From NCBI GenBank assembly GCA_011939005.1, contig GCA_011939005.1_4858.1: DNA of 64,000 bases. The stretch is one strand, 5' to 3'. The position numbers and the translations under genes are program-made. Below, one piece after another: positions 2,376-33,264 of this stretch (its first letter is position 1; every line of letters starts with the position of its first letter). The notes under the pieces are model-generated. The model was not told where the DNA came from, did no database searches, and worked only from the letters and a program-made list of their open reading frames with translations. Source of the DNA: a phage.

Positions 2376-2969
2376 TTACGCTTCGGCCTCAAAGAACGGC
2401 TGGTTCGGTACCACTGCATATTCGAGCACGAAAAGATGTTCTGGGGCATCTTCTGCTCGCCACAGTTTGTGACACGTTGCCAGTTTTTCCAGGATGGTCA
2501 ACCAGCTGAGCTGGCAGAAAGCACGGTCGCCGAAGAACAGTTTCTGCAGTGCAATCGACACATCCATATACGCCTGTTTGAAGTCGAGTTCTTTATCGTA
2601 ACCCGCCGACTGTCGCCACGTCAGCACGAAACCTGCTTCGGTTTCGTTAATTGCTGGACGTAAACCACAAATCCACATCAGCGCCAGATTAACGTTCCAG
2701 TCGAATTCGATACCTTCGTCTTCGTCATCACCAAACGCCGCGTTTAACGCATCGTAGAAACCGTGGTTCTCTGCGAACCATTCGCCATACTCAACGTATA
2801 CCGGTGCTTCGACAGCTTCCCCATCGACTTCACCGATAGGACGCTCTACATAGTTCGGGTTGGTTTGAACGTGTTCCGCACCCGCGCGAATTAATTCGTA
2901 GACATCTTTGGCGGTGATTTGTGCGGCTGTTTTAAGACCTGGATACCAGGGGCGTGTTACGAGTGTCAA
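2376..2969 (-). CDS. hypothetical protein (197 aa)
   Basis: ORF with apparent TTG start overlapping stop of upstream gene; no motif recognised. Confidence 0.55.
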   Translation of the reverse strand: MTLVTRPWYPGLKTAAQITAKDVYELIRAGAEHVQTNPNYVERPIGEVDGEAVEAPVYVEYGEWFAENHGFYDALNAAFGDDEDEGIEFDWNVNLALMWICGLRPAINETEAGFVLTWRQSAGYDKELDFKQAYMDVSIALQKLFFGDRAFCQLSWLTILEKLATCHKLWRAEDAPEHLFVLEYAVVPNQPFFEAEA

Positions 2970-3688
2970 AGCAATGCTCCTTTCATGATAGTGTTATTTG
3001 CCAGTAGTGTACCGGCCGCAGGTGATATTTTGGTGTACAGCGTATCCCAGATTTTCTGAAGCTCAGCGACGCGTTGGTCGCGGTCTTCCTTCGCAAAAGC
3101 AAGCTGACGTGTTTCAGCTTTCGGTGGCGTCATTTTCGCACCGTAGAATGCTGCGTCTTTTCGGTAGCTGGCCATCCAGCGTTTCCCGACCGATGATTTC
3201 TTTTTAATCATCGCAACAGCAGCGCTCTCACCGAAGCGGTAGCCTAATGCGATTTCGGCTGTGCTCGGCTTGCGTTTGAGTTGTTTTGTCAGATGATCCT
3301 CGATGTGTTTCATGTAAACAGCAGCAAGCTGTACAGCATATTTCGGTTTATTAAGGTCTGCGTTCTTTGGGATGTTAAGTTGTTTCCCATACAGACGTAT
3401 CATGGAGCGTTTAGTGCCTGTCGTCATTTGGACAACACTACTAGCACTGCTCGATTTATTCTTACCCACGTTTTTATTAAAACGGGATTCGCGGTAAATG
3501 GTGGTCGCAAGCATCCCGGCATGTACACCTTGCTTTTGAGATGCAGAGACGATGAGAGGTTTAATCTCATTGAACTGGTCCTGGATAAGGACGAATTCTT
3601 TTTGGTGTTTGTTACTGGTGGTCTGGTAAGAAGCGTTGCTGTTGAATGTGGTCACTGCTACCAGAAGAAATAAAATGGTGCGAAACAT
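2966..3688 (-). CDS. secreted lytic transglycosylase (SLT domain) with N-terminal signal peptide
   Basis: ATG with GGAGA RBS; hydrophobic N-terminus MFRTILFLLVAVTTF; motif ESRFN...SSASSVVQMTTGT resembling the SLT catalytic-Glu region (ES..N...S.GA.GLMQ...T). Confidence 0.6.
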   Translation of the reverse strand: MFRTILFLLVAVTTFNSNASYQTTSNKHQKEFVLIQDQFNEIKPLIVSASQKQGVHAGMLATTIYRESRFNKNVGKNKSSSASSVVQMTTGTKRSMIRLYGKQLNIPKNADLNKPKYAVQLAAVYMKHIEDHLTKQLKRKPSTAEIALGYRFGESAAVAMIKKKSSVGKRWMASYRKDAAFYGAKMTPPKAETRQLAFAKEDRDQRVAELQKIWDTLYTKISPAAGTLLANNTIMKGALL

Positions 3689-3787
3689 GGATGTATCTCC
3701 AAACGGATTTATACTTTTCCGTTCCCAATCCGGGAAGACGGCGCGGACGGCATTGTGCTCCTTTGTAATGTGCCCTGATGATAATAT

Positions 3788-4288
3788 CTATTTGAAACTT
3801 TTTGGGATGATTTTCTCTGCTTCCCTCAGCAGGGTGTCCGGTAAATAGAATCGATAAGTCTGCTCCGTGTGCTGTAGTCTTTTCTGTAAGTGTATAAAGA
3901 TTTCCAATCGCTCATGGTAACGTAACCAACCGTTAGCCATCCCTAGGGGCGGTATCGCAATCCCTCCTTCTAAGTCTTCCCCTAGTCGCGCCAGCGCATC
4001 AATGCCGGACGTGACATAGTAAATCTGCGATTTATAGCGAAAATGGGTTTTAGTAGGAAGGAGTATTACCCCTTCCTCAGGATAACAATAGACCTCACCG
4101 ATAACGATTTGCTCTTTACGACATTTCTGGCGATAGTCATTATAAAGCGATGGGAAGCGTTCTCGGCACGCCAAAGCAATGCCCCTTCCCATTGCACCAA
4201 CACAGTTAACTGTAACGACCTTGAAGCGCTCAGGCGCGTTAAACAGGTCGTGGGAGATAATAGCCTCGTCGATCAGTTCTAGTGACAT
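3788..4288 (-). CDS. macro domain protein (TARG1/Poa1p/DarG-like ADP-ribose hydrolase fold)
   Basis: VNCVGAMGRGIALACRERFP matches the C-I-S...G.GIA..F...F signature of TARG1-type macro domains; later GIAIPPLGMANGW resembles the second macro motif. Confidence 0.55.
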   Translation of the reverse strand: MSLELIDEAIISHDLFNAPERFKVVTVNCVGAMGRGIALACRERFPSLYNDYRQKCRKEQIVIGEVYCYPEEGVILLPTKTHFRYKSQIYYVTSGIDALARLGEDLEGGIAIPPLGMANGWLRYHERLEIFIHLQKRLQHTEQTYRFYLPDTLLREAEKIIPKSFK

Positions 4289-4928: not shown

Positions 4929-5447
4929 TTAATCAATCTCGCGTTTAGGGCTCCTGTGAAACTTCACTTCAGGATTATCCTTAAATGTTTCCCAGATAAG
5001 GGACGCACCACCAAGCTCTTTGGTTTTCGTGGTGCGCAAGTGTGAGTCGCCGAGCATAACAGCACAACGTCCTTTTGCCATATACTTTTTAATTTTTTCA
5101 ACCATTTTAGCTTCACGAATATAAAAAGAACGGCTAAAGTTTACAGCCATTCCCTTTTTATCCTTGATATCTTTAGCGTAGGTTGCATCGCTCCAGTCAT
5201 CGATCCCAATAGCAGGGATGCCGAGTTTCTTAGCCAACTCCAGCCCCATGGGCCCAATAGAGTACATCTTCTCCTTTAATGCCTTATCTTGCGCTTTTGC
5301 AGTGTGATATTCATACGGCCCCAGTTCTTCACACAGTAAAAAATCGTATGGTTTTTTCCGATGGTTATCGATGATCGCCCATTCAACACGATTACGATCG
5401 GCCGTGGTATGAATTTCCCCATATATGTCAACACGAATGTCCGTCAT
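4929..5447 (-). CDS. hypothetical protein, possibly TraB/GumN/ChaN (Tiki-like) family
   Basis: ATG with GAGGA RBS; N-terminal IYGEIHT and C-terminal MLGDSHL resemble the GE.H...G..H pair of that family (weak, by eye). Confidence 0.6.
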   Translation of the reverse strand: MTDIRVDIYGEIHTTADRNRVEWAIIDNHRKKPYDFLLCEELGPYEYHTAKAQDKALKEKMYSIGPMGLELAKKLGIPAIGIDDWSDATYAKDIKDKKGMAVNFSRSFYIREAKMVEKIKKYMAKGRCAVMLGDSHLRTTKTKELGGASLIWETFKDNPEVKFHRSPKREID

Positions 5448-5723: not shown

Positions 5724-6212
5724 CTATGCTACCGCAGTCCTTAAAGGTTCATCTGCTTCCGCAGGAACCTGCTTCGTAAATTCAAGCCATTGTCCGTCGG
5801 TAGAGACTGTCTTGTCAAAACCGCGAGCGGTAAAGAACGCAATACCAGCTTCCTGGCAAGCGTATATTCCCCCATGCGCATTGGTGAACTGTTCGTTCAC
5901 TTCAAGCGCATCAAAAATCTGCGTCATCGTTTTACGACGGCGTGCCATTTCAGACACGAACATCGTACGAATCTTCAGAACCCCAGCGATTACGCGATAC
6001 AAACAGTAACCAACAGGGGTACCCCCTTCCAGAGCAACACAAGCACGGTTCCCCGCCAACAGTTTCTCCAGAGTGAGGTTCGGAATCTCACCTTTTTCGA
6101 TATGGAGTATGGTACGTTGGTGGTTCAGAAATTTATAATGCAGCCCCAACAGCTGTTTATTTTGTGCTTCCGTTAAATCTGAAGATGAGGAAAGAATGAC
6201 AATTTCGGCCAT
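5724..6212 (-). CDS. hypothetical protein, possible GNAT-fold acetyltransferase (162 aa)
   Basis: ATG at 6212 preferred over GTG at 6239; C-terminal AFFTARGF resembles GNAT motif B; weak. Confidence 0.45.
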   Translation of the reverse strand: MAEIVILSSSSDLTEAQNKQLLGLHYKFLNHQRTILHIEKGEIPNLTLEKLLAGNRACVALEGGTPVGYCLYRVIAGVLKIRTMFVSEMARRRKTMTQIFDALEVNEQFTNAHGGIYACQEAGIAFFTARGFDKTVSTDGQWLEFTKQVPAEADEPLRTAVA

Positions 6213-6358
6213 GAGCTGAATTCCTAAGTGAGCTTTCACCTGCGATGAAAGCGAGTAACGAAGAATTGCGTTTGTGTTTTCTTAAGTTTACCGGTAAAGC
6301 TTAGCGGTGTATACCGCTGCAGGTAAAGACCAGTTCTCTATCGGAACCGTGTCTTTGA

Positions 6359-6637
6359 TCAACAACGTCGTTGAAAACGCTGCGATGCTGAGGTAACCTT
6401 CCGTCGCCACATTCGCTCATGGCGCTTCTGATTACCACGCCAGTCTTCCCCGACTGTACGTGAAACTGCAAAATCATCCGGCCCGCAGACTTCCGCGATG
6501 TCTGCTAGAAGGTTCTTTGAAGACCCTATAGCCATCCCCGCGCTCGAAAGAACGATACGCCGGGTTGACACGGCCGCCCCTGAACCCACGACCACGGGAT
6601 CAGAGACTGTTTCACTGTTACATGATACTTCTCCCAC
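6359..6637 (-). CDS. hypothetical Gly/Ser/Val-rich protein (92 aa)
   Basis: GTG start with strong AGGAGGG RBS 7 nt upstream. Confidence 0.4.
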   Translation of the reverse strand: MGEVSCNSETVSDPVVVGSGAAVSTRRIVLSSAGMAIGSSKNLLADIAEVCGPDDFAVSRTVGEDWRGNQKRHERMWRRKVTSASQRFQRRC

Positions 6638-6655
6638 TTCGTAATTACCCTCCTG

Positions 6656-6763
6656 TTAAAACCAACCTTGCATCAATGCAAGGATTGCGCCTAGGGCGTA
6701 TGCGCCCGCTCCTAGTATCAGGCTACAGACGATACACCCAACCCTTTTCACTAAAATAACCAT
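6656..6763 (-). CDS. tiny hydrophobic peptide (35 aa)
   Basis: Hand-translated MVILVKRVGCIVCSLILGAGAYALGAILALMQGWF; single TM; not in ORF track (below length cut-off). Confidence 0.3.
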   Translation of the reverse strand: MVILVKRVGCIVCSLILGAGAYALGAILALMQGWF

Positions 6764-6882
6764 GTTGCTACAAACGCTCCGATTGCGCAAATGATAAGCG
6801 TGATACCAACATCTGTCCATGTGGCACCGTCATACGCACCTGTTGCAATCATGGCTGCGTTGACACTATTCACGACTGTCAT
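6748..6882 (-). CDS. tiny hydrophobic peptide (about 43 aa)
   Basis: Hand-translated MTVVNSVNAAMIATGAYDGATWTDVGITLIICAIGAFVATWLF; AAGGGA RBS; overlaps neighbours by about 16 nt. Confidence 0.3.
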
Positions 6883-7069
6883 AAGCCGGGTCCCTTAAAC
6901 GCGGGGGCTTGCTCCACAGATTACCGAAGTAAACCCCTTCTAAGAACACCAAAACAACTAAGCCCCAAAAGGCAGGCGTAGCGCGAGACATGAAAATACC
7001 GAGTAGCACCACAGTGTGCATTACCACAACTGCCCAAAACTTTAAACGACCAGGTTTACGTCTTGCCAT
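6866..7069 (-). CDS. small membrane protein (67 aa)
   Basis: ATG at 7069 with AAAGGA RBS (track start 7114 is GTG); hydrophobic core FWAVVVMHTVVLLGIFM. Confidence 0.45.
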   Translation of the reverse strand: MARRKPGRLKFWAVVVMHTVVLLGIFMSRATPAFWGLVVLVFLEGVYFGNLWSKPPRLRDPAYDSRE

Positions 7070-7156
7070 GGAATGCCCATCCTTTCGTGCGGATAATCCA
7101 ACCCCAGGCACCACGAATCAACCACAGTGCAATACCGGTTAATACGATACCTTCAA

Positions 7157-7348
7157 TCATGTCCGTTCTCCTATATCTCGCCACTCACAACGCGTGTCGA
7201 ACAGACGTTCTTTAAGAGCAGCAGCTAAATAAACGACCGCAGCGATAACCACTACGGTTGCACAAAAGGAGAGGTACAGTACCATCACAACAAACTGAAG
7301 GAACTGAAAACCCCACCAAGCCCATAAGCGCCAACCTTTATGATGCAT
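7157..7348 (-). CDS. small membrane protein (63 aa)
   Basis: ATG with AAGGGG RBS; Trp-rich hydrophobic segments. Confidence 0.45.
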   Translation of the reverse strand: MHHKGWRLWAWWGFQFLQFVVMVLYLSFCATVVVIAAVVYLAAALKERLFDTRCEWRDIGERT

Positions 7349-9848
7349 ATTTGATTATTACCCCTTCGTTATACACCGGTGGAAGCGTTACACCTTCTGG
7401 TTCCACGACACAGTAGGTGGCTTCGTTAAGTTTAGAATGAACTTCCGCTTCATGCGAAACGACCAGCAATTGAGAAAACTCTCCCGACAACGCCAACGAT
7501 TTAATGAAGTTAACTAATCGGTTTTTGTGTTCTTCATCCATGCCTTCAGATGGTTCATCCAATAACAAAGGATAATTTTGTAAACCAAGTGCTTTATACG
7601 CCGTTAAACGAAACATCATGTTGAAAATGATACGCTGTGCTTTTGAACCTTTCTTCACGTCAGGCACCAGTTCTTCATGGTCTTTTAATCGCACTGGGAA
7701 TGTATAATCCAAATCCCCGTCGGTTAGATCGCATGGAATAACCTGCATCGGATATGCCCACACCATTTCGATATACCGATTCATTAAATCCATGATGCGG
7801 GTAATCGCAGCATAAAAGTAACGACGCAATAATCCTTTTTCGGGTGAGACGGCATTGATAATCAATCTGGCATGATGGTGTTCTTTGAGCAACTCAGCTT
7901 GCTCTTTTTCCAGTTCCGCTAAACGTGCAATAGCCCCTTCCATTTGACGAAACCGTTCACGAGCTGAAGTATACGCATCGAGCTTCGCTTCGCGTCGGTT
8001 TAACAACTCGCGAACCACGACGTTGTTAACGGAGATGTTCATTTCCGATACCAGATGTTCGTAGCCCTTTTGGAAACGTTCGATTGCTTCTTTGGTTTGT
8101 TGCAGTTGGGTGGTTTCGCGTTCCAGCTCATTGGCTTGTCTGCGGTATTCTATCAGTCGTCGGTTAGCCCCGTCCAGTTGTGAACGGATATGTTCAATTT
8201 TCTGGCTCAGCGCACCATCAACGTTACCTACTGCAGCAACAGCCTCTTGCCATTCCCGTTCCGCTGTTGCAAGCTTCGCCGATTGACGCAGATACATCAT
8301 GGCCGAATCTAACTCTTCAGTAAAGGCACGTGCAATGGCACCGTAACGATCCCGCGCCGTGGTGAAGATATCCAGCTCCTGCAGTTTACGGAAAAACAAA
8401 CCGATAACGGGATGATTGGAATACGACATGACGATTTCGCGAATCGTACGTAAGCTACGGACGTCCTCTTCAATCTCTTTGCGGTCACGCAAAAGACTAT
8501 CCATTTCGTCTTTCAGCTGTTTTTTCCAACCTTCATTATCGTTGATGGCCTTTTCAATTTCAGGTAACGACTTACGAATCCCAGGACGGAAACGGTGGTT
8601 ACACTGTGGACAATCAACTTCTGCAGTTTCTAAGAAGTGTTGACGGTCGTGGTATAAACCGTGTAGCACATTCTCACAACGTTGCAACTTTTCAGATAGA
8701 CCCGCAGAGGTTAAATCCATACCCTGTAAACGCTTCTCTAACGCTCCCAGGCGCTCTGTTGTCTTTAACTGGTCCAGATGCATGGACAACGGTAAATTCC
8801 AGTTACAGGCGTCGTTTAACGCGTTCTGAATGCTATCCACGTCGATGCGGGTACCTTCAAACAGAGCCGGGAACATCCAGTTCTGTTGGAATGTTGCCAG
8901 TTCCTGTTTTAAGCTGTCGATTGTTTGTTTTAGACCGGTATGGTTGCGCATCAGATACGCTTGACGCGACTCCTCATCCAGTAGCTGTGACAACTCTTTA
9001 TTGTACATGTTGCATTCAGTTTCAGCAGAGGCAGCTTGCTCGCGCCAGGCAACCACACGACTTTGAAACTCGTTAATCAGTTCGTCAGAAGGCAGAACGC
9101 CATAACGTTCCATAATGAGTTTTACAGCCGGTTGCAACGAAGCAATGCGTTTCCGGATACTATCAACCGAAACGGCGTTATCTAAACCGGGTCTCGCTTC
9201 AATGGTGCGGTTTAGTTCCTGAAGCTCAACGTCCAGTTCTTTCAAACGAACTTCCAAACGTGCACGATCTTCTTCATCGTCAACGACGCGCATTTTTGCT
9301 TCGCCGATTTTTCGTCCGGTGTGCTCAATGGCCCCACTTAAACTGGAAGCGAGTTTACGCAGACGACGATAACAACCAACAACGTACGTCAGATCAGATT
9401 CTGACATTAACGTAAACCATTTACGACGAACTTCAGTGGTGGCGTCTGTTAATAAGGTCTCACCATTAATTAACTCTTTGATTTCTTTGGTGATTCCGGT
9501 TAATTGCTCCACCATGGAGTTGTAAACTTTAGCGTTTACTGAATCTACGATGGAAACACCTTTAGTGATGTTGAAGATACTACAAGACAAAGAAGACCCA
9601 CGTCGCAGGACTTCAAACTTAAGACGGTCGTCCCCAACTAACGCGTAGTTAGTGTAGGAACCACCTTCACGGAATTCTGATTTTGCTGGAGCTAAGGGGA
9701 GAAAAACAGATAGGAGGCTTGTTTTACCGCAGCCGTTGCCACCGAGGATGATGGTAACGGTTGACTTAAGGGTGAAATCAAACGTTTCGATTTCATGTAA
9801 CCCCATGCCGGTAAATCCTTTCAAAATGATACGTTCGACCTTGAGCAT
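7338..9848 (-). CDS. SbcC/Rad50-like recombination ATPase (T4 gp46-like architecture)
   Basis: N-terminal Walker A GGNGCGKTS; long coiled-coil middle; CPQC zinc-hook-like motif; C-terminal Walker B LLLDEP. Confidence 0.8.
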   Translation of the reverse strand: MLKVERIILKGFTGMGLHEIETFDFTLKSTVTIILGGNGCGKTSLLSVFLPLAPAKSEFREGGSYTNYALVGDDRLKFEVLRRGSSLSCSIFNITKGVSIVDSVNAKVYNSMVEQLTGITKEIKELINGETLLTDATTEVRRKWFTLMSESDLTYVVGCYRRLRKLASSLSGAIEHTGRKIGEAKMRVVDDEEDRARLEVRLKELDVELQELNRTIEARPGLDNAVSVDSIRKRIASLQPAVKLIMERYGVLPSDELINEFQSRVVAWREQAASAETECNMYNKELSQLLDEESRQAYLMRNHTGLKQTIDSLKQELATFQQNWMFPALFEGTRIDVDSIQNALNDACNWNLPLSMHLDQLKTTERLGALEKRLQGMDLTSAGLSEKLQRCENVLHGLYHDRQHFLETAEVDCPQCNHRFRPGIRKSLPEIEKAINDNEGWKKQLKDEMDSLLRDRKEIEEDVRSLRTIREIVMSYSNHPVIGLFFRKLQELDIFTTARDRYGAIARAFTEELDSAMMYLRQSAKLATAEREWQEAVAAVGNVDGALSQKIEHIRSQLDGANRRLIEYRRQANELERETTQLQQTKEAIERFQKGYEHLVSEMNISVNNVVVRELLNRREAKLDAYTSARERFRQMEGAIARLAELEKEQAELLKEHHHARLIINAVSPEKGLLRRYFYAAITRIMDLMNRYIEMVWAYPMQVIPCDLTDGDLDYTFPVRLKDHEELVPDVKKGSKAQRIIFNMMFRLTAYKALGLQNYPLLLDEPSEGMDEEHKNRLVNFIKSLALSGEFSQLLVVSHEAEVHSKLNEATYCVVEPEGVTLPPVYNEGVIIKYAS

Positions 9849-9901: not shown

Positions 9902-9933
9902 AAAAAAGAAGAAATGGAACCCCGAAGGGTTCC
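9902..9933 (-). terminator. rho-independent terminator
   Basis: Hairpin ggaacc-ccgaa-gggttcc followed by T-run on minus strand. Confidence 0.6.
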
Positions 9934-9944
9934 AGAGAGGAGAG

Positions 9945-10571
9945 TTACTGCGGAATAAACTTACGGTGTCCGAGCGATTCCCAAAAACTGTCGGTGCGCT
10001 CTTTGGTTAATTCATACCACGCACGCCCGGCATCAGAATCGACAACCTTTAACGTTTCAGTAAGCAGGAATTTGAACAGTTCAGCGCTACGACCGGGTGC
10101 CACGCCGTCGAGATATATCGGGATTAAATAACCGGTTTTGATTTCTTCGTACGGTTGCGATTGGTGCTGGCCAACAACCCAGGCATCAGCAGCGCTACCG
10201 ACCAATGTGGTGTTTACAGTTAACTCATCAGAAATCCAGTTAACTGTATCAGCCATTATTGAATCGCCATTGACGTAGAAGAAAACTAAACGTTTAGGTT
10301 GCTCCACCGAACCAGCCAAATCTAATGCAGTAGTTCCGGTGAAGATCGTATTATTGGGATTACGTTCTGCAATAGGTAGAGCAAACCACGCTTCGAGCTG
10401 CCCCCAGCTACGCGGCAGTGCTTCTTTAAACCACTTCACCAATCGCGGGTATTCCAGAAACCCTTCTACCTCTTCTTCCATCAGATTGATACGCAGTTTG
10501 GTATCCTGACGATTCGCTTTCTGACACGTCACCATGTCGTCGATGAAACGAATCAGGGTAATCTCGTTCAT
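9945..10571 (-). CDS. hypothetical protein (208 aa)
   Basis: ATG with AAGGAT RBS; no Mre11-type phosphoesterase motifs. Confidence 0.65.
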   Translation of the reverse strand: MNEITLIRFIDDMVTCQKANRQDTKLRINLMEEEVEGFLEYPRLVKWFKEALPRSWGQLEAWFALPIAERNPNNTIFTGTTALDLAGSVEQPKRLVFFYVNGDSIMADTVNWISDELTVNTTLVGSAADAWVVGQHQSQPYEEIKTGYLIPIYLDGVAPGRSAELFKFLLTETLKVVDSDAGRAWYELTKERTDSFWESLGHRKFIPQ

Positions 10572-10587
10572 GTTTAATCCTTCTTCA

Positions 10588-10617
10588 ACAAAAAAAGAAG
10601 GTAGCCCGTAGGCTACC
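10588..10617 (-). terminator. rho-independent terminator
   Basis: Hairpin ggtagcc-cgta-ggctacc with T-run on minus strand. Confidence 0.6.
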
Positions 10618-10625
10618 TCTCGTAT

Positions 10626-11126
10626 TTACAGCCCCATATGCATAAGGGAAATGATTGGGACCTTACGGCCACGAATCATTGCATACGGTTCGTACATTTG
10701 TGCGTTAGTTTCGAATAACTCACAGGCCGGAATACGGTCACCGGTAGAGAGTTGTAAGACCTCAATTTGGTCGCCCCAGAAGTTATTCACTAATACGTGG
10801 TCGACAGTGTTGTCTTCACGACCTTCAGGGGTTTTGCAATAAGTGGCTGCATCGTACCAACCTTTGCGGTATACTTCATATCCCGCATGAAGCATCCGGT
10901 AGTACGGACGTAGCTGTGGGGCATTCAACGCAGCATCTAACCATTCGCTGTGGATGCTGTTAATCAGTACGGTTGCTTCTGCTGGCCAGTCGGTGCGATT
11001 GAGGGTTAACTCGCCTAACAACTTCAACTTCCAACCAGTAGAAAGAATAGCACGGGTACGTTCAGGGTTAACGTTCATCTGAGTAAAGAAAGAAGAACGG
11101 GTATCGTCGAGAATGTTCATGTTCAT
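10626..11126 (-). CDS. hypothetical protein (166 aa)
   Basis: ATG at 11126 with AAGGAT RBS; track start 11192 is GTG inside the terminator hairpin. Confidence 0.6.
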   Translation of the reverse strand: MNMNILDDTRSSFFTQMNVNPERTRAILSTGWKLKLLGELTLNRTDWPAEATVLINSIHSEWLDAALNAPQLRPYYRMLHAGYEVYRKGWYDAATYCKTPEGREDNTVDHVLVNNFWGDQIEVLQLSTGDRIPACELFETNAQMYEPYAMIRGRKVPIISLMHMGL

Positions 11127-11155
11127 TTGCTTAATCCTTACGGGTAATAGTCGAT

Positions 11156-11230
11156 TAAAAAGGACCCTGCGGCTAAGTGTTGGGGAGATCACCGCAGGGC
11201 CAAAGTGAGATGGGTCGTCATCTCACGTTA
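11156..11230 (-). terminator. rho-independent terminator (compound hairpins)
   Basis: Stems ccctgcgg/ccgcaggg and gtgagatg/catctcac followed by T-run on minus strand, downstream of gene 11256..11639. Confidence 0.5.
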
Positions 11231-11255
11231 TAACATCTGTCTGAAAACTTTTCGG

Positions 11256-11639
11256 TTACTGGTCGAGCGCTATTGAACCACGCACTTCGCCTTGTTGTTC
11301 AATAACCAGGAGGCGCTGTTTGGTTTTCGTATTGTAAGCGAGCGACGCGCGAAGCGTCGGGTCGCACGTTATTGTCTCTACCGGCACAATCTCTTGTGCC
11401 TTTGAGTTCAACAGAAAGTAGTAACCTGCCGGACAAGTTTCCTCGCCCTTTGCGTGGACTAGGATGTACTCGTCGTGCCGGCTGACTTCTTCACATCTAC
11501 CATCGTCGCCAGTACAGACTTCGAATGAAGGCGGGTTGTACTGATACGGTGTGCCCGGCAGTAAATCTTCTACGCTGGTTGTAGCTGAAGCGGAAGCGGT
11601 CAAGAACACCGCCGCGATAATACCCATAAATCCACGCAT
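11256..11639 (-). CDS. small secreted Cys-containing protein (127 aa)
   Basis: ATG with AAGGAA RBS; signal-peptide-like N-terminus MRGFMGIIAAVFLTASASA; four Cys. Confidence 0.6.
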   Translation of the reverse strand: MRGFMGIIAAVFLTASASATTSVEDLLPGTPYQYNPPSFEVCTGDDGRCEEVSRHDEYILVHAKGEETCPAGYYFLLNSKAQEIVPVETITCDPTLRASLAYNTKTKQRLLVIEQQGEVRGSIALDQ

Positions 11640-11652
11640 GTTGTTTCCTTAC

Positions 11653-12063
11653 TTAAAAGTCGAGTTTATTGATGCCTACGTTTTTCTTAATCGTAGGGTC
11701 GTACATGATAACCGTCAGGGCATTGTCGCCTGGGTCGCGAGTAAACTCGGCAACGGCTTCACCACTGCAGGCTTGGTTATCATTATAGTTCATGGATTCG
11801 GCTTGCCCGGTTGCCATGTTAATAACCCCGTATTCAGGGTCGCCACATGCGACACCGCCCATCGTTTTCACTAACAGGTAACGGTTGTTATCGGACATCG
11901 CAACGATCTGGCAGCTACCGCCTTGTACGTCAGAGTTCTGGCACCAGAACTGTCCGCCGTATTCGTGATCGTTAACAACTTTTGGTAACTCGATACTTCC
12001 AGCGCGAGCGAAGAAGCTAATGGCCAGAGTAGCAAGTAAAACTGGTAATAAAAAATGTTTCAT
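11653..12063 (-). CDS. small secreted Cys-containing protein (136 aa)
   Basis: ATG with GAGGTG RBS; signal-peptide-like N-terminus MKHFLLPVLLATLAISFFARAGS. Confidence 0.6.
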   Translation of the reverse strand: MKHFLLPVLLATLAISFFARAGSIELPKVVNDHEYGGQFWCQNSDVQGGSCQIVAMSDNNRYLLVKTMGGVACGDPEYGVINMATGQAESMNYNDNQACSGEAVAEFTRDPGDNALTVIMYDPTIKKNVGINKLDF

Positions 12064-12085
12064 AATAGCACCTCAATTTTTTGAG

Positions 12086-12577
12086 TTATTCTGAATAGTC
12101 GATTGTTTTGATGGTTTCCATACCGTAGTACATAGCGATGGAGGCCAGAGTTTTGGTATCAGGTCGCTGTACAAAACCGGCCCTGAAATCTTTGCTGCAA
12201 ATTTTCTCCACTGATAGTTCATCACGATTAGGGATAAGCCATAACGCGTCACCGTTGTGACGGTCGACTGCACCCCACCAACCACCTGGGCAATCTTTAT
12301 CGCCCGGACGGTGTACGATAGCGACACGTCCGTTGAAGGATATGTCAACTACACGACACTGTTTCTTAAGCAGCTTACGCGCATTGCACCAGAACGGCTT
12401 ATCATTAAGATTGATGGTGCGGGTATATGCTGGAATGCTGCCGTTAATACTGCCCTGGAACCCGCTGAATTCGTCAGCGCGTGCCTTAGAAATCCGTAGC
12501 CCAACAACAACTGCCATCAACAGCACAGTAAAAAGCACCACCTTAATCAGGTGGTGATTAACGTTATTGCATTTCAT
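12086..12577 (-). CDS. exported or membrane-anchored protein (163 aa)
   Basis: ATG at 12577 with GGAGA RBS; N-terminal hydrophobic stretch LIKVVLFTVLLMAVVVGL. Confidence 0.55.
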   Translation of the reverse strand: MKCNNVNHHLIKVVLFTVLLMAVVVGLRISKARADEFSGFQGSINGSIPAYTRTINLNDKPFWCNARKLLKKQCRVVDISFNGRVAIVHRPGDKDCPGGWWGAVDRHNGDALWLIPNRDELSVEKICSKDFRAGFVQRPDTKTLASIAMYYGMETIKTIDYSE

Positions 12578-12965
12578 TTTTGATATCTCCACGAATGAGG
12601 GTGATGCGACCAACGAGCACATCGTTGTGATAAAAACTCACAGCAACCAGATCTGGCAATTCCAACGGCGATACGCTGACCGAAGTGACTTTTGGTTGAT
12701 CGCACGATATGTCGATTAATCGCTGATACATTTTCAGTTTCTTATCAGCGATAACCAGCCCTGTGCAGTTCTTACCATCCGTCAGTTTGTAGATTTGTAA
12801 CTGTTCGACCTCACGCATCAGTTCCGGTTTTTCATTCGGTGCAATGCCATAATCCGAATCAGCTGATGTGTATTCAGTCACGTCTGGCTTATCGAAAGCA
12901 TAAGTTGCTGCGATACCACATGCGGCCAGAACTACTACTGCTTGTAAGAACTTCTTGATAGTCAT
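12564..12965 (-). CDS. putative lipoprotein (133 aa)
   Basis: N-terminus MTIKKFLQAVVVLAACG with lipobox-like LAAC. Confidence 0.55.
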   Translation of the reverse strand: MTIKKFLQAVVVLAACGIAATYAFDKPDVTEYTSADSDYGIAPNEKPELMREVEQLQIYKLTDGKNCTGLVIADKKLKMYQRLIDISCDQPKVTSVSVSPLELPDLVAVSFYHNDVLVGRITLIRGDIKNEMQ

Positions 12966-12990
12966 GTTTTACTCTATAGTCGATTGGTTT

Positions 12991-13019
12991 AAAAAAGAAT
13001 AGGCTACCCGGAGGTAGCC
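12991..13019 (-). terminator. rho-independent terminator
   Basis: Hairpin ggctacc-cgga-ggtagcc followed by T-run on minus strand. Confidence 0.6.
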
Positions 13020-13022
13020 ATT

Positions 13023-13063
13023 GAGTTAATCTCTTAACTCTCACCTAAGTAATATATATCTGA
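13023..13063 (-). promoter_or_regulatory. conserved element copy 1: palindrome gagttaa-N4-ttaactc plus shared 30-mer
   Basis: 30-mer ttaactctcacctaagtaatatatatctga at 13034-13063 is identical to 61077-61106; both carry the same upstream inverted repeat. Confidence 0.4.
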
Positions 13064-13069
13064 GATATT

Positions 13070-13657
13070 TTACAATGTGAACGTTGTGTTAAGAATACGA
13101 AAACCCAATGCTCGCTTAGCGATTTGCATATTTGCAGGCGTGAAGTCCACCAGTTTGATTTGAACGATCGATAAATCGTAAAGCTTGTGAAGCACTTCGA
13201 TTTTGTGTCGCCAATCTGTTTTTTGGTGCAGCTCTATCGTCGTTGGTATCTCGCCTAGTCTCGGCAACTGTGCTCCAAGTAAACGATGATGGACTTTACC
13301 GTTTATAGTTGGGGTGCCTTCCGTGACCATCAGTCGCGCATCGATGTAGTTATTTCGCTTAGCGTACTCCATAAAAGTTTTGACATTTATCTTTTCCTCG
13401 TATAGAATGCTGCGAAAGTATTCGTAAATGATGTGTCCTGCCTCCCTACCGCTTTCCGAGTCCGGAATAACCTTATCGATGAAAATCGCAGAGACCACTT
13501 CGTTCCCACGCGAATGCATTGTAATGACCCTGTCCCCGTGCTGCGCAGAAGTTATTAACCCACTTACATCAAGCCCCACTGGGAACAAGCCGCGACTACG
13601 CATTACGTGCAGGTCTTCTAACCTGTTCTCTTGCAGTCGTAAAATACGTTCTGTCAT
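13070..13657 (-). CDS. hypothetical protein (195 aa)
   Basis: ATG at 13657 with GAGGTG RBS (track start 13666 is GTG). Confidence 0.6.
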   Translation of the reverse strand: MTERILRLQENRLEDLHVMRSRGLFPVGLDVSGLITSAQHGDRVITMHSRGNEVVSAIFIDKVIPDSESGREAGHIIYEYFRSILYEEKINVKTFMEYAKRNNYIDARLMVTEGTPTINGKVHHRLLGAQLPRLGEIPTTIELHQKTDWRHKIEVLHKLYDLSIVQIKLVDFTPANMQIAKRALGFRILNTTFTL

Positions 13658-13690
13658 ATACCACACCTCAAATTAATTTGAGTTAAGTGT

Positions 13691-13731
13691 AAAAAATAAG
13701 AGGACTCCAGTAACCCTCGTGGTTACTGGAG
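13691..13731 (-). terminator. rho-independent terminator
   Basis: Hairpin ctccagtaacc-ctcgt-ggttactggag followed by T-run on minus strand. Confidence 0.6.
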
Positions 13732-13736
13732 ATAAA

Positions 13737-14267
13737 CTACACACTCAACGTTTCGATGAAAGTGATGCGCGCTGGGTGAAATGTGTGATAAGCAGTCACC
13801 GGCGTGTGCGGGCCTTCGGCTGCGTGTATTGCGCCATCGTATCCGCTCAACAACAGATGGTCATATATCCCACTGCAGTTATACGCCACCGATGCCCACA
13901 GAGGTAACTTGTCAAACTCTTTAGGGTGTTGGTGATAAATTTCCATTAAACCCTTTTCAGGATGACGCTCTTGGATACGCACCCACTCATTCGTTTTAGT
14001 GAGCAGCCTCCCTTTCTTCTGTGCCACTGTCTGGTATTGATGCGGGGAAAGAATATCGCGGAAATTACCCATGTCGACAAATGGGTCGGTTGGATCGTTG
14101 ATAAACGGATTGGTGATTTCCAAAGAAACGTGGTTGATTAGCCAGCTGGGATTCGCTTTAACGATTTCGGCAGGCACATCGATGTCTTTATAAACAACCT
14201 GTGAACGCGACAGGTTGGCTTCAGCAAAAGGTTTATCAGTAACAACGTAGCCTTCGAGTTTCATCAT
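13737..14267 (-). CDS. hypothetical protein (176 aa)
   Basis: ATG with AAGGAG RBS; ATGA-type overlap with upstream gene. Confidence 0.6.
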   Translation of the reverse strand: MMKLEGYVVTDKPFAEANLSRSQVVYKDIDVPAEIVKANPSWLINHVSLEITNPFINDPTDPFVDMGNFRDILSPHQYQTVAQKKGRLLTKTNEWVRIQERHPEKGLMEIYHQHPKEFDKLPLWASVAYNCSGIYDHLLLSGYDGAIHAAEGPHTPVTAYHTFHPARITFIETLSV

Positions 14268-14827
14268 AAAGCTCCTTTAAAGTGGTATGTTAAGCTTTCT
14301 ACGAGATGGCAGGTTTGGCTTTCAAAGAAGTGTAAAATGGGCTCAATGGGCACACCGCCGAGATTATAGACGATTACGTCCTGCTTTAATCCGGCATCGA
14401 CTTCGCTAAGAAACGATTCGGTTGCGAGTTCACTCTCTGACGAGGAAAGGGTAATCGTTGTTTCCCCATCGTCGCTACTACCAGACGCATCCTGTAAACG
14501 CAAAACGGTCGGTACGGTTTTACTGATACGAATATCTGGCGGGAGTGTAACCTCCAGTAGCGGTGTACGGACTTTACGCGCAAGATAGTTGGTGAATAGA
14601 TTGGGATCAAGCTCACTGACGCCACAGCAAATGCAGTTCAGTAAGGTCGACAAGCTTGTCGTTTTGCGTTCAAATATCCCCTTGATCTGTTTGGCCTTAT
14701 CGCTATAAAGGAACACCAACAGCTGGTCGGGGTTATCCGGTAAATCACTTTCAACTCCTTCCCACTCCGGATCGTTGCGGATGTGCTCTTGCCAGATATC
14801 GTTTCGAATTTCTAGTAAACGGAACAT
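14264..14827 (-). CDS. hypothetical protein (187 aa)
   Basis: ATG with AAGGTG RBS. Confidence 0.6.
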   Translation of the reverse strand: MFRLLEIRNDIWQEHIRNDPEWEGVESDLPDNPDQLLVFLYSDKAKQIKGIFERKTTSLSTLLNCICCGVSELDPNLFTNYLARKVRTPLLEVTLPPDIRISKTVPTVLRLQDASGSSDDGETTITLSSSESELATESFLSEVDAGLKQDVIVYNLGGVPIEPILHFFESQTCHLVESLTYHFKGAL

Positions 14828-14836
14828 ACACTCACC

Positions 14837-15418
14837 TTACGCAATGTAAATACCACGGTGGTTACGGAAACCGTGTTCTTCGGTAAGGTAGCGCGCATAG
14901 GTGTGCTCGACGGATGGGGTGTAGCAAACCAGATGCAATTCCTGACCTTCAGCTAGGCCCGGTAACATGACGTTTAGCCAATCCATCCCGCCGTTCTGCT
15001 GTAACGTATCTTGCGACAGCGTTAGTGGCTGAACAATATGCGCTGGGTTACTGTCGTCTTCGCTTTTCGTAAAACGAAGAATAGCCGGACGGGAACCATC
15101 TACTAGTACCGTGCGTGGTAAGTCAAAAGCAACCACCTTCGCTTTCTGTTCGTAGGATGATTTATAACGACGTAACAGTCCAATATCGGTATCTAGTACG
15201 GTAGCCATCACGTTATACAACATCACTAGACGGGCGTCGTTATCGATGGTGACGTGTTTTACGAACACCATCATCGGAATACCTTCGCGTTGGAATACCA
15301 CGAAGTCTGCTTCTTTGTATTTCTCGCAACCTTCTACTACCCGTGGGGCTTTCACGCGATAGCGGCGGGTCAGTTCTTCGTAGTTCATTTCATGTTGTTC
15401 AATAATTGGTTGTGGCAT
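14837..15418 (-). CDS. hypothetical protein (193 aa)
   Basis: ATG start, weak RBS. Confidence 0.6.
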   Translation of the reverse strand: MPQPIIEQHEMNYEELTRRYRVKAPRVVEGCEKYKEADFVVFQREGIPMMVFVKHVTIDNDARLVMLYNVMATVLDTDIGLLRRYKSSYEQKAKVVAFDLPRTVLVDGSRPAILRFTKSEDDSNPAHIVQPLTLSQDTLQQNGGMDWLNVMLPGLAEGQELHLVCYTPSVEHTYARYLTEEHGFRNHRGIYIA

Positions 15419-15440
15419 GGTTAAATACTCTTTACGGTTA

Positions 15441-15469
15441 AAAAATAAGAAGGGGGTACAAGACCCCCG
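15441..15469 (-). terminator. rho-independent terminator
   Basis: Hairpin gggggt-acaa-gaccccc with T-run on minus strand. Confidence 0.6.
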
Positions 15470-15478
15470 ATGGCGAGA

Positions 15479-16717: not shown

Positions 16718-16838
16718 TTGGTATTTCCTTTTAAAGTACACTAAAGTGACCAAAAAATGTTACTAAAGAACAGTTGGTGTTTAAGCGACTGTGGGTTTAT
16801 ACACAATGCTCACTAAGATGACATCTATCTGTAAAAAC

Positions 16839-17156
16839 TTAGTATACGACCAGTACGATGCAGTCATCGATAGCCAGATTCAGTAATGAGTAGTCGTTAC
16901 TTAACCGCTGGTAACGCATCCCTTTTTCAAACCGACTTAGTTGTTCAGTCGGCATGACGTATACCGCGCTTTGCACTACTCCCGTAAACAGTTCGTCGTA
17001 GAACTGGTCTACTTCCCCGACTTTGTAAAAGCGCATTCTTTGATTGTTAGCAAAGACGCTATCTAGCTTCCCGTTACTGGCTTTCTGTAACGCAGTAAAG
17101 GCACTGTCTGCATCATTACGCTCTAATGCACTTTTAATGGTTTGAAATAAAGACAT
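16839..17156 (-). CDS. hypothetical protein (105 aa)
   Basis: ATG with GAGGAG RBS; diverges from the plus-strand structural block. Confidence 0.55.
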   Translation of the reverse strand: MSLFQTIKSALERNDADSAFTALQKASNGKLDSVFANNQRMRFYKVGEVDQFYDELFTGVVQSAVYVMPTEQLSRFEKGMRYQRLSNDYSLLNLAIDDCIVLVVY

Positions 17157-33217: not shown

Positions 33218-33264
33218 CAGATAGCGCTATGGGGCAAGGAAGCCCCAATCAAAGGAGTTTGGCA

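What the first reader, a model, noticed from the sequence alone, without database searches (positions are those of the whole stretch)
7338..9848. SbcC/Rad50-like ATPase without an adjacent Mre11/SbcD-type nuclease
The 836-aa protein has Walker A, coiled coil, CPQC hook and Walker B, but the flanking genes are a terminator-separated 208-aa unknown upstream and tiny membrane proteins downstream, none with phosphoesterase motifs. In T4 (genes 47/46) and T5 the nuclease partner is adjacent. The partner may lie outside the window, or this ATPase works with a non-canonical partner.
Basis: partly seen in the sequence, partly recalled or inferred. Interest (0 to 1): 0.35.

Follow-up and report, generated by a model that had tools for sequence, protein, structure and literature searches.

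The report
Known split phage Rad50–Mre11 gene pair
This is the already described, essential SbcC/Rad50-type DNA-end-processing ATPase of SPN3US-like giant Salmonella phages; its Mre11/SbcD nuclease partner is encoded about 147 kb away in the same genome, as in all phiKZ-related phages, so the finding is ordinary.

Summary
ORF 7338..9848 (-) encodes an 836-aa, 95.7-kDa Rad50/SbcC-type ABC ATPase with Walker A, a long antiparallel coiled coil, a CPQC zinc hook, a relaxed signature motif (GSKAQ), Walker B, D-loop and H-loop. No metallophosphoesterase gene lies next to it or anywhere in the 64-kb window.

The window is a Seoulvirus (SPN3US-like jumbo phage, about 97-98% nt identity). The gene is the orthologue of SPN3US gp186, with 4 aa differences. 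In 36 related phage records, and on six IMG/VR contigs that carry both genes, an Mre11/SbcD-like gene (SPN3US gp27) lies 87-148 kb away. I confirmed that gp27 is a true Mre11/SbcD: PHROG E=1e-52, family profile against T. maritima Mre11 E=9e-13, AF2 model pLDDT 93, and Foldseek top 28 hits all Mre11/SbcD.

About 290-298 phiKZ-like phage genomes carry both genes. They were far apart in all 18 records where I could compare positions.

Thomas et al. 2016 (J Virol) already reported gp186 as the essential SbcC subunit, gp27 as SbcD, and their 'drastic' genomic separation. Novelty: already known. Interest is low.

The parts
7338..9848 (-). Gene for the 836-aa SbcC/Rad50-family ABC ATPase. It is the orthologue of SPN3US gp186 and phiKZ ORF165.
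   Evidence: ORF and translation. phrog_77 'SbcC-like subunit', E=9e-96, full length. Best PDB sequence hits are P. furiosus Rad50. AF2 model. Foldseek top hit is C. thermophilum Rad50 7zr1_D, E=1.8e-20. Four aa differences from SPN3US_0186.
9720..9743 (-). Walker A / P-loop, GGNGCGKT (aa 36-43)
   Evidence: Coordinates. G36, N38, G39, G41 and K42 are invariant in 21 family members, including phiKZ-like, PhiPA3-like, Goslar and Miami.
8580..8618 (-). Zinc-hook region, VDCPQCNHRFRPG (aa 411-423), at the apex of the coiled coil
   Evidence: C413, C416, F420 and G423 are invariant; P414 and P422 are nearly invariant. It lies in the hairpin between helices 367-407 and 428-476 of the model.
7635..7649 (-). 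ABC signature motif in relaxed form, GSKAQ (aa 734-738). The canonical form is S-G-G-[QE].
   Evidence: Aligns to S-G-G-E of PfRad50. S735 is invariant and Q738 nearly so. Positions 2-3 vary across the family (SKAQ, STAQ, SDSQ, SKGQ, SGGE).
7536..7571 (-). Walker B PLLLDE (aa 760-765) and D-loop SEGMD (aa 767-771)
   Evidence: P760, L761, D764, E765 and D771 are invariant. Coordinates.
7452..7457 (-). H-loop / switch, SH (aa 798-799)
   Evidence: S798 and H799 are invariant. Aligned to the PfRad50 H-loop.
9915..9934 (-). Terminator-like GC-rich hairpin plus T-run. It lies between the upstream 208-aa gene and the ATPase gene, and about 65 nt of spacer and an AGAAGG Shine-Dalgarno sequence follow it.
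   Evidence: This is a pattern match only; function was not tested.
7157..7348 (-). 63-aa single-pass membrane-type ORF (SPN3US gp187 homologue) that overlaps the ATPase stop by 11 nt. It may be translationally coupled. Any association with the complex is speculative.
   Evidence: Thomas et al. 2016 compare it with T4 gp47.1. No such gene lies downstream in Miami, PA1C, the phiKZ-like MKR2 or Goslar.

Best explanation
The ORF is the Rad50/SbcC subunit of a phage Mre11-Rad50 (SbcCD-type) complex in an SPN3US-like, nucleus-forming jumbo phage (genus Seoulvirus). By analogy with Rad50/SbcC, two ATPase subunits join through the CPQC zinc hook at the tips of coiled-coil arms of about 270 residues. 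Their ABC heads bind and hydrolyse ATP and clamp DNA ends. The nuclease subunit is the Mre11/SbcD homologue gp27. It is encoded about 147 kb away in a separate gene cluster and is supplied in trans. The complex most likely resects double-strand ends to start recombination-dependent replication and repair of phage DNA, as T4 gp46/gp47 does. Shown here: the identity and architecture of both proteins, their co-occurrence across the phage family, their genomic separation, and purifying selection. Shown by others: gp186 is essential in SPN3US and ORF165 is essential in phiKZ. Inferred: physical pairing of gp186 with gp27, the biochemical activity, and the role in recombination-dependent replication. 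The unlinked gene arrangement is a lineage-wide trait of phiKZ-related genomes and does not indicate a missing or unusual partner.
For: The window is 97-98% identical to Seoulvirus genomes. The gene is SPN3US_0186, with 4 aa differences and 78 synonymous against 4 non-synonymous codon changes. ATPase identity: phrog_77 E=9e-96; best NCBIfam hits are ASRP and Rad50 equivalogs, all sub-threshold; PDB sequence hits are Rad50. Walker A, CPxC hook, signature Ser, Walker B, D-loop and H-loop are invariant across 21 homologues down to 20% identity. The AF2 architecture fits and Rad50 is the top fold hit. Partner: SPN3US gp27 matches phrog_100 at E=1e-52. In 67 homologues the phosphoesterase motifs D22xH24, GD58xxD61, GTPSH101D, H180 and GH212xH214 are invariant or nearly invariant. 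The family profile hits T. maritima Mre11 3qg5_C at E=9e-13 over nearly full length, and all 16 PDB hits are Mre11/SbcD. The AF2 model has pLDDT 93.1. The Foldseek top 28 hits are all Mre11/SbcD, the best being E. coli SbcD 7yzo_A at E=2.5e-14. Co-occurrence: 298 phage records hold the ATPase and 290 hold the nuclease, with matching genus counts (Pseudomonas 81/81, Erwinia 62/62, Serratia 21/21, Aeromonas 19/19, Klebsiella 16/16, Ralstonia 13/13). Separation: at least 38 kb, mostly 80-115 kb on a circular map, in 18 of 18 records listed in both searches, and 87-148 kb on 6 of 6 IMG/VR contigs. Literature: gp186 is an essential SbcC subunit, gp27 is SbcD, and the genes are 'drastically separated' in SPN3US, phiKZ and relatives (PMC5105663). 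phiKZ orf165 is required according to antisense knock-down (PMC12571901) and TnSeq (PMC12676376). SbcC plus SbcD are near-universal in jumbo phages (PMC7824862).
Against: No direct evidence here or in the papers read shows that gp186 and gp27 bind each other or have nuclease activity. Curated HMM thresholds are not reached: Pfam SMC_N 28.4 bits against a cut-off of 40, NCBIfam Rad50 57.6 against 1087, and Pfam Metallophos 15.1 against 21.5 for gp27. The nuclease has Ser instead of the metal-binding Asn in motif III, and the ATPase has a non-canonical signature motif, so activity could differ from the textbook enzymes. The window's own genome outside these 64 kb was not available, so gp27 is inferred from relatives.
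Confidence: 0.88

Rival explanations
1. The protein is a stand-alone SMC-like ATPase of the SMC, RecN or Lamassu/Wadjet type. It would organise or sense DNA with a non-Mre11 partner, for example the adjacent 208-aa protein or the small membrane proteins, and would not be functionally tied to gp27.
For: No nuclease gene is adjacent or present in the window. The best Pfam hit is SMC_N and GenBank records call the protein 'SMC domain-containing'. Fold hits after Rad50 include Smc5/6, condensin, MukB, Lamassu and JetC.
Against: There is an invariant CPxC hook where SMC proteins have a hinge domain. Rad50 is the top hit by both fold and PDB sequence search. An Mre11/SbcD homologue co-occurs in essentially the same set of about 290 genomes. 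The flanking genes differ in phiKZ-like, PhiPA3-like, Goslar and Miami phages, so no conserved adjacent partner exists. The 208-aa neighbour matches only a PHROG of unknown function and no Pfam family.
Confidence: 0.04
2. This is the same Mre11-Rad50 complex, but its main job is membrane-associated degradation of host DNA rather than phage recombination. The overlapping 63-aa membrane protein (gp187) would act as the anchor, as proposed for T4 gp46/47 with gp47.1.
For: T4 gene 46/47 mutants fail to degrade host DNA, and gp47.1 was suggested as a membrane anchor (as summarised in PMC5105663). The gp187-like ORF overlaps the ATPase stop codon by 11 nt and has a strong hydrophobic segment.
Against: The small membrane ORF is not found downstream of the ATPase gene in more distant family members, whereas the ATPase and nuclease are core genes. 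T4 46/47 mutants are also deficient in recombination and DNA replication, so the two roles are not exclusive. No localisation data for gp186 or ORF165 were found.
Confidence: 0.07
3. The ORF is a decaying or chance ORF, and the motifs are coincidental.
For: None beyond the sub-threshold curated-HMM scores.
Against: Against SPN3US, 78 codon differences are synonymous and 4 are non-synonymous. Full-length homologues exist in 163 or more phage records. All catalytic motifs are invariant. The gene is essential by amber mutation.
Confidence: 0.01

Closest known systems
Salmonella phage SPN3US gp186 (SPN3US_0186, 'putative SMC domain-containing protein', the SbcC subunit) with gp27 (SbcD subunit)
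   Same: Same gene. It has 836 aa and 95.7 kDa, differs at 4 aa, and has the same neighbours (gp185 upstream; gp187, gp188 and gp189 downstream). In SPN3US the nuclease gene gp27 lies at 21,020-22,168 and gp186 at 168,900-171,410.
   Different: Only about 3% nucleotide divergence, mostly synonymous. The window's genome is a different isolate, not present in the searched collections.
Pseudomonas phage phiKZ ORF165 (SbcC-like) and its unlinked SbcD-like gene; homologues in PhiPA3/PA1C, Goslar, Miami, RAY-like Erwinia phages and others (Chimalliviridae core genes)
   Same: Same length class (about 815-830 aa). Walker A, CPxC hook, signature Ser, Walker B, D-loop and H-loop are all invariant. The ATPase and nuclease genes are likewise far apart. 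ORF165 is required for infection.
   Different: Only about 20-25% identity. In phiKZ-like and PhiPA3-like genomes the gene sits divergently next to the gp164 baseplate gene. In the window about 7.4 kb of small ORFs separate it from the baseplate gene homologue.
Phage T4 gp46 (Rad50) / gp47 (Mre11)
   Same: The same two-subunit logic, an ABC ATPase with coiled coil plus a metallophosphoesterase. Both are essential, with a presumed role in end resection for recombination-dependent replication (established T4 biology).
   Different: The T4 genes are clustered, separated only by two small ORFs, and gp46 is about 300 residues shorter in the coiled-coil region. No BLASTP-detectable similarity exists (PMC5105663). 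Here the genes are about 147 kb apart.
E. coli SbcCD and archaeal/bacterial Mre11-Rad50 (P. furiosus, T. maritima)
   Same: Fold and motif architecture of both subunits agree. The gp27 model is best matched by E. coli SbcD in the SbcCD head complex and by the T. maritima Mre11 sequence profile. The ATPase is best matched by Rad50.
   Different: The cellular genes form an sbcDC or mre11-rad50 operon. The cellular nuclease has GNH[DE] in motif III where the phage family has GTPSHD. The cellular signature motif is SGG[QE] where the phage has GSKAQ. The phage proteins fall below the curated family HMM cut-offs.

Membership tests
Rad50/SbcC family (SMC-like ABC ATPase with zinc hook) | Split ABC ATPase head: N-terminal Walker A; C-terminal signature motif, Walker B, D-loop and H-loop | tested here: met
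   GGNGCGKT 36-43, GSKAQ 734-738, PLLLDE 760-765, SEGMD 767-771, SH 798-799. The key residues are invariant in 21 homologues. The signature motif is relaxed to S-x-x-[QE].
Rad50/SbcC family (SMC-like ABC ATPase with zinc hook) | Long antiparallel intramolecular coiled coil between the two head halves | tested here: met
   The AF2 model has helices at 138-407 and 428-667 between the lobes at 1-130 and 670-836, with pLDDT 82.6. This is a prediction, not an experiment.
Rad50/SbcC family (SMC-like ABC ATPase with zinc hook) | CxxC zinc hook at the coiled-coil apex, in place of an SMC hinge domain | tested here: met
   CPQC at 413-416, mid-protein, in the apical hairpin. C413 and C416 are invariant across the family. 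Zinc binding itself is not testable here.
Rad50/SbcC family (SMC-like ABC ATPase with zinc hook) | Q-loop glutamine after lobe I | tested here: inconclusive
   No invariant Gln is evident in the expected region. Invariant R141 and nearly invariant T134 lie there instead. I did not make a residue-level structural superposition.
Rad50/SbcC family (SMC-like ABC ATPase with zinc hook) | Score above the curated family HMM thresholds | tested here: not met
   Pfam SMC_N scores 28.4 against 40, and AAA_23 19.5 against 27. NCBIfam Rad50 PRK02224 scores 57.6 against 1087. The phage-specific phrog_77 'SbcC-like' is matched at E=9e-96. This reflects divergence and does not show a different fold.
Rad50/SbcC family (SMC-like ABC ATPase with zinc hook) | An Mre11/SbcD-type nuclease partner encoded in the same genome | tested here: met
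   Absent from the 64-kb window. Present in 36 related phage records and on the same contig in 6 of 6 IMG/VR genomes that hold both genes. For this exact isolate it is inferred.
Rad50/SbcC family (SMC-like ABC ATPase with zinc hook) | Operon linkage with the nuclease gene (typical of the family, not defining) | tested here: not met
   The two genes are 87-148 kb apart in all relatives compared. This is a known trait of phiKZ-related phages.
Rad50/SbcC family (SMC-like ABC ATPase with zinc hook) | ATP-dependent complex with Mre11/SbcD that cleaves DNA ends or hairpins | not testable with these tools
   This needs biochemistry or at least a multimer structure prediction. Only single-chain prediction was available.
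Mre11/SbcD nuclease family (partner gp27, outside the window) | Calcineurin-like phosphoesterase motifs I-VI | tested here: met
   D22xH24, G57D58xxD61, G97-T-P-S100-H101-D102, H180, G211H212xH214 are invariant or nearly invariant in 67 homologues. Motif III has Ser where the canonical motif has Asn, plus a two-residue insertion, as seen in the alignment to T. maritima Mre11.
Mre11/SbcD nuclease family (partner gp27, outside the window) | Mre11 fold: phosphoesterase domain, capping domain and C-terminal helices | tested here: met
   AF2 pLDDT 93.1, pTM 0.83. The Foldseek top 28 hits are all Mre11/SbcD, E down to 2.5e-14. The profile aligns to T. maritima Mre11 residues 2-342. Pfam Metallophos alone is sub-threshold, 15.1 against 21.5.
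SMC proper (Smc, MukB, condensin-type) | Globular hinge dimerisation domain at the coiled-coil apex | tested here: not met
   Only a hairpin of about 20 residues with CPQC separates the two coiled-coil arms. SMC-type structures rank below Rad50 in the fold search.

The most novel reading that the evidence does not exclude
The Mre11-Rad50 machine of phiKZ-related (nucleus-forming) phages might be a mechanistically distinct variant. Its nuclease invariably has Ser in place of the metal-ligand Asn of motif III, within a GTPSHD loop. Its ATPase has a relaxed signature motif, S-x-x-[QE]. The two subunits are always made from distant transcription units. Together these could reflect separate timing or separate import into the phage nucleus, and an altered metal or ATP coupling. 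None of this is excluded by my data, and none of it is supported beyond the sequence features.
Probability: 0.08. Interest if true: 0.4.

Novelty: already known. Interest (0 to 1): 0.07.

Why it matters
It matters little as a discovery. The gene, its essentiality, its SbcD partner and the unusual genomic separation of the two were published for SPN3US in 2016, and both proteins are recognised core or near-universal jumbo-phage functions. The value here is negative: an 'orphan' Rad50 seen in a partial window of a phiKZ-like genome should not be read as evidence for a missing or non-canonical nuclease, because functionally linked genes are routinely scattered in this lineage. The family-wide motif variants (Mre11 motif III Asn to Ser; Rad50 signature SKAQ) are modest leads for anyone studying the biochemistry of this complex.

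Tried and rejected
1. Pfam and NCBIfam on the ATPase and on gp27 gave only sub-threshold hits. I moved to PHROGs, family profiles against PDB, and structure prediction.
2. A single-sequence phmmer of gp27 against PDB gave only spurious netrin-receptor hits at E of about 1. The 67-sequence profile then gave clean Mre11/SbcD hits.
3. I used the SPLA3 copy of the nuclease first. Its N-terminus, including motif I, is split off by a short duplication or assembly error, which explains the empty Pfam result. I switched to SPN3US gp27.
4. I looked for the window's exact protein in the assembly collection, and it is not on record. No phage record exceeds about 98% nt identity over long stretches. The '>=99%' records are fragmented SPFM assemblies aligned in many short pieces.
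5. I tested whether the neighbours could be a conserved alternative partner. The 208-aa protein and ORF 4929..5447 have no informative Pfam hits and match only PHROGs of unknown function. The neighbours differ in phiKZ-like, PhiPA3-like, Goslar and Miami phages. The downstream genes there are not hydrophobic.
6. A literature search for 'gp165' plus 'phage nucleus' returned the PhiPA3 tail sheath protein, which is unrelated. The RAY 'putative exonuclease gp064' that is cytoplasmic in Prichard et al. is, from its gene number against the roughly 197-kb position of the SbcD-like gene in RAY-like genomes, probably a different protein. I did not verify this.
7. Rfam and tRNA scans of the whole window found nothing.
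8. The sigma-70 promoter scan was not enriched over shuffles, and it is not appropriate for phages that use their own RNA polymerases.
Full report
**What is there.** ORF 7338..9848 on the minus strand starts with ATG and encodes 836 aa, with a calculated mass of 95.7 kDa. The sequence shows these motifs directly:
- Walker A: GGNGCGKT, aa 36-43
- CPQC, aa 413-416, almost exactly in the middle of the protein
- A signature-like GSKAQ, aa 734-738
- Walker B: PLLLDE, aa 760-765
- D-loop: SEGMD, aa 767-771
- H-loop: SH, aa 798-799

An AlphaFold2 model built on 22 homologues has mean pLDDT 82.6. It has globular lobes at residues 1-130 and 670-836, long helices at 138-407 and 428-667, and a short hairpin at 408-427 that carries CPQC. 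This is the Rad50/SbcC architecture.

**Flanks.**
- The upstream 208-aa ORF (9945..10571, minus strand) has no Pfam hit and matches only phrog_9964, of unknown function.
- A GC-rich hairpin followed by a T-run (9934..9915, minus strand) lies between that ORF and the ATPase gene.
- Downstream there is a run of very small hydrophobic ORFs: 7157..7348, 7056..7184 and 6866..7114, and probably also 6751..6882 and 6656..6820.
- ORF 4929..5447 matches only phrog_14325 (unknown function) and a sub-threshold DUF5694.
- An HMM of the phage Mre11-like family found nothing at E<=10 among all 503 six-frame ORFs of at least 50 aa in the window. The only GNH[DE] string lies in an ORF that lacks GDxxD.

So the statement 'no adjacent Mre11/SbcD' holds, and it extends to the whole 64 kb.

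**Where the window comes from.** The region is 97-98% identical at nucleotide level to Seoulvirus genomes. These are SPN3US-like jumbo phages of about 240 kb that infect Salmonella and E. coli, such as EC001, the SPFM series, SPLA3 and SPN3US. The gene corresponds to SPN3US_0186. Against that gene it differs at 82 nucleotides, which give 78 synonymous and only 4 non-synonymous codon changes. That is clear purifying selection. The exact isolate is not in the collections I could search.

**The partner exists elsewhere in the genome.**
- SPLA3 annotates an 'SbcD-like subunit' at 32.9-33.9 kb, whereas its SbcC-like gene lies at 179.8-182.3 kb.
- In SPN3US the genes are gp27 (21,020-22,168) and gp186 (168,900-171,410), on the same strand and about 147 kb apart.
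- A megablast with the nuclease gene found it in 36 related records.
- gp27 overlaps the end of gp26 inside a different co-oriented gene cluster, so the two subunits must be transcribed separately.

**Is gp27 really an Mre11/SbcD?** Pfam gives only a sub-threshold Metallophos hit (E=0.032), so I tested this properly.
- gp27 matches phrog_100 'SbcD-like' at E=1e-52.
- In an alignment of 67 homologues down to 25% identity, the phosphoesterase motifs are invariant or nearly so: D22-x-H24, G57-D58-x-x-D61, G97-T-P-S100-H101-D102, H180 and G211-H212-x-H214.
- A profile of that alignment hits T. maritima Mre11 (3qg5_C) at E=9e-13 over nearly its whole length. All 16 PDB hits are Mre11 or SbcD.
- The AlphaFold2 model has pLDDT 93.1.
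- The first 28 Foldseek hits in the PDB are all Mre11/SbcD. The best is E. coli SbcD in the SbcCD head complex, at E=2.5e-14.
- The model ends with helices after the capping domain, where Mre11 proteins carry their Rad50-binding helices. That reading is an inference.

One departure is family-wide. Motif III reads GTPSHD, with Ser aligned to the canonical metal-binding Asn of GNHD and a two-residue insertion.

**Is the ATPase really Rad50/SbcC rather than another SMC-like protein?**
- It matches phrog_77 'SbcC-like' at E=9e-96 over its full length.
- The best PDB sequence hits are P. furiosus Rad50.
- The best fold hit is C. thermophilum Rad50 (7zr1_D, E=1.8e-20), ahead of Smc5/6, condensin, MukB, Lamassu and JetC.
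- I aligned it with homologues from phiKZ-like, PhiPA3-like, Goslar and Miami phages, at about 20% identity. Walker A, both hook cysteines, F420, G423, the signature Ser, Walker B, D771 and the H-loop are all invariant.
- There is no hinge domain.
- The curated Pfam and NCBIfam thresholds are not reached. I attribute this to divergence.
- The signature motif is relaxed in this family to S-x-x-[QE]: SKAQ here, SDSQ in phiKZ-like phages, SGGE in Miami.

**The unlinked arrangement is a trait of the lineage.**
- tblastn finds the ATPase in 298 phage records and the nuclease in 290, with matching genus counts: Pseudomonas 81/81, Erwinia 62/62, Serratia 21/21, Aeromonas 19/19, Klebsiella 16/16 and Ralstonia 13/13.
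- In all 18 records listed in both outputs the two genes are at least 38 kb apart, and mostly 80-115 kb apart on a circular map. Examples are a phiKZ-like phage at 50 against 215 kb, Miami at 71 against 241 kb, PCH45 at 68 against 193 kb, and PhiEaH1 at 152 against 18 kb.
- On six IMG/VR contigs that carry both genes, the distances are 87-148 kb.
- Identity to the query falls in parallel for the two proteins across these genomes, for example 63/74, 58/66 and 50/63%. This fits vertical co-inheritance.
- The neighbours of the ATPase gene are not conserved. In phiKZ-like and PhiPA3-like phages the neighbour is a divergently transcribed baseplate gene. In Goslar a RuvC-like resolvase lies two genes downstream. 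In Miami there is a small soluble protein and a transglycosylase. No alternative adjacent partner emerges.

**What is already published.**
- Thomas et al. 2016 (J Virol; PMC5105663) isolated an amber mutant in SPN3US gene 186 and showed that the gene is essential.
- They call gp186 the SbcC subunit (phiKZ ORF165 homologue) and gp27 the SbcD subunit.
- They also note the 63-aa transmembrane gp187 downstream and compare it with T4 gp47.1.
- phiKZ orf165 scores as required in an antisense screen (PMC12571901) and tolerated no transposon insertions (PMC12676376).
- Iyer et al. 2021 describe SbcC plus SbcD as practically universal in jumbo phages and as part of their core recombination apparatus (PMC7824862).

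**Most likely mechanism.** A gp186 dimer joined at the zinc hook carries a gp27 dimer on its ATPase heads. By analogy with T4 gp46/47 and SbcCD, the complex uses ATP binding and hydrolysis to engage DNA ends and resect them. The resected ends then feed recombination-dependent replication and repair of the phage genome.
- Shown here: the identity and architecture of both proteins, their co-occurrence, their separation, and purifying selection.
- Shown by others: essentiality.
- Inferred: the physical pairing, the enzymology, the cellular location and the pathway.

A role in host DNA degradation, possibly membrane-associated through gp187, is not excluded. However, the small membrane ORF is not conserved beyond close relatives.

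**Verdict.** The case is already known and is ordinary for this phage family. The only mildly interesting residues of the analysis are the family-wide motif variants in both subunits.

Noticed in passing
window 6656..7348 (- strand): Directly downstream of the ATPase gene lies a tandem run of four to five tiny ORFs (63, 42, 67-82, 43 and 54 aa), each with a strongly hydrophobic, transmembrane-like segment. They correspond to SPN3US gp187-gp189. The 54-aa ORF 6656..6820 is not annotated in SPN3US, MET_P1_082_240 or SPLA3, and the 43-aa ORF 6751..6882 is annotated only in SPN3US. Their function is unknown. The first overlaps the ATPase stop codon by 11 nt.
   Followed up: partly
window 6240..6650: A stretch of about 400-650 bp between the GNAT acetyltransferase gene (5724..6239) and the small hydrophobic ORFs has no gene annotated in MET_P1_082_240 or SPLA3, and only a 40-aa ORF in SPN3US. 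It gave no Rfam or tRNA hit. I did not examine it for a regulatory region or a small RNA.
   Followed up: no
L006:5901-7049 (SPN3US gp27) and alignment A1: All 67 aligned Mre11/SbcD-like proteins of this phage group have GTPSHD in phosphoesterase motif III. Ser sits where canonical Mre11/SbcD has the metal-binding Asn (GNHD), and there is a two-residue insertion. This may explain why Pfam Metallophos misses most of them.
   Followed up: partly
window 7635..7649 (aa 734-738) and alignment A2: The ABC signature motif of the ATPase is GSKAQ rather than SGG[QE]. Across the family only the Ser and the [QE] are kept (SKAQ, STAQ, SDSQ, SKGQ, SGGE).
   Followed up: partly
L003:32679-33921 (Salmonella phage SPLA3, OR413581.1): The SbcD-like gene of SPLA3 is split. 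A short duplicated segment separates the N-terminal 71-aa piece, which carries motif I (DIH), from the annotated 352-aa CDS. This is probably an assembly or sequencing artefact. Its annotated protein lacks motif I and gives no Pfam hit.
   Followed up: partly
SPFM1, 5-10, 12, 14, 15 and 20 records (LR5359xx): About a dozen SPFM phage records align to both genes only in 17-37 short pieces, and their proteins appear frameshifted (for example P0032, P0158-P0165). This suggests indel-rich assemblies. These records inflate the '>=99% identity' counts in megablast summaries.
   Followed up: no
window 9945..17156 (- strand) versus L008/L009: In phiKZ-like and PhiPA3-like phages the SbcC-like gene is divergently adjacent to the gp164 baseplate gene. 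In the window about 7.4 kb holding 12 co-oriented ORFs of unknown function lies between the ATPase gene and the baseplate-gene homologue (17341..18273, +). This looks like a lineage-specific accessory insertion.
   Followed up: partly
window 11256..12622 (- strand): Three adjacent small ORFs (127, 136 and 178 aa) are weak paralogues of one another (BLASTP E=1e-6 to 2e-4, 26-28% identity).
   Followed up: partly
window 33229..34467 (+ strand): This 412-aa ORF gave a weak hit (E=1.5e-4, 15 bits) to the SbcC-family HMM. It is probably coiled-coil or compositional similarity.
   Followed up: no
L010 (Escherichia phage Goslar, MK327938.1 6054-9955): In Goslar the SbcC-like gene is followed, after one ORF, by a RuvC-like Holliday junction resolvase and a thymidylate kinase. 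This small recombination-related cluster is not seen in the Seoulvirus arrangement, where the RuvC-like gene lies elsewhere (SPLA3 97.6 kb).
   Followed up: no
window 2966..4288 and 5724..6239 (- strand): Other recognisable genes near the finding are an SLT lytic transglycosylase domain protein (2966..3688), a Macro-domain protein just under the Pfam cut-off (3788..4288), and a GNAT acetyltransferase (5724..6239).
   Followed up: no
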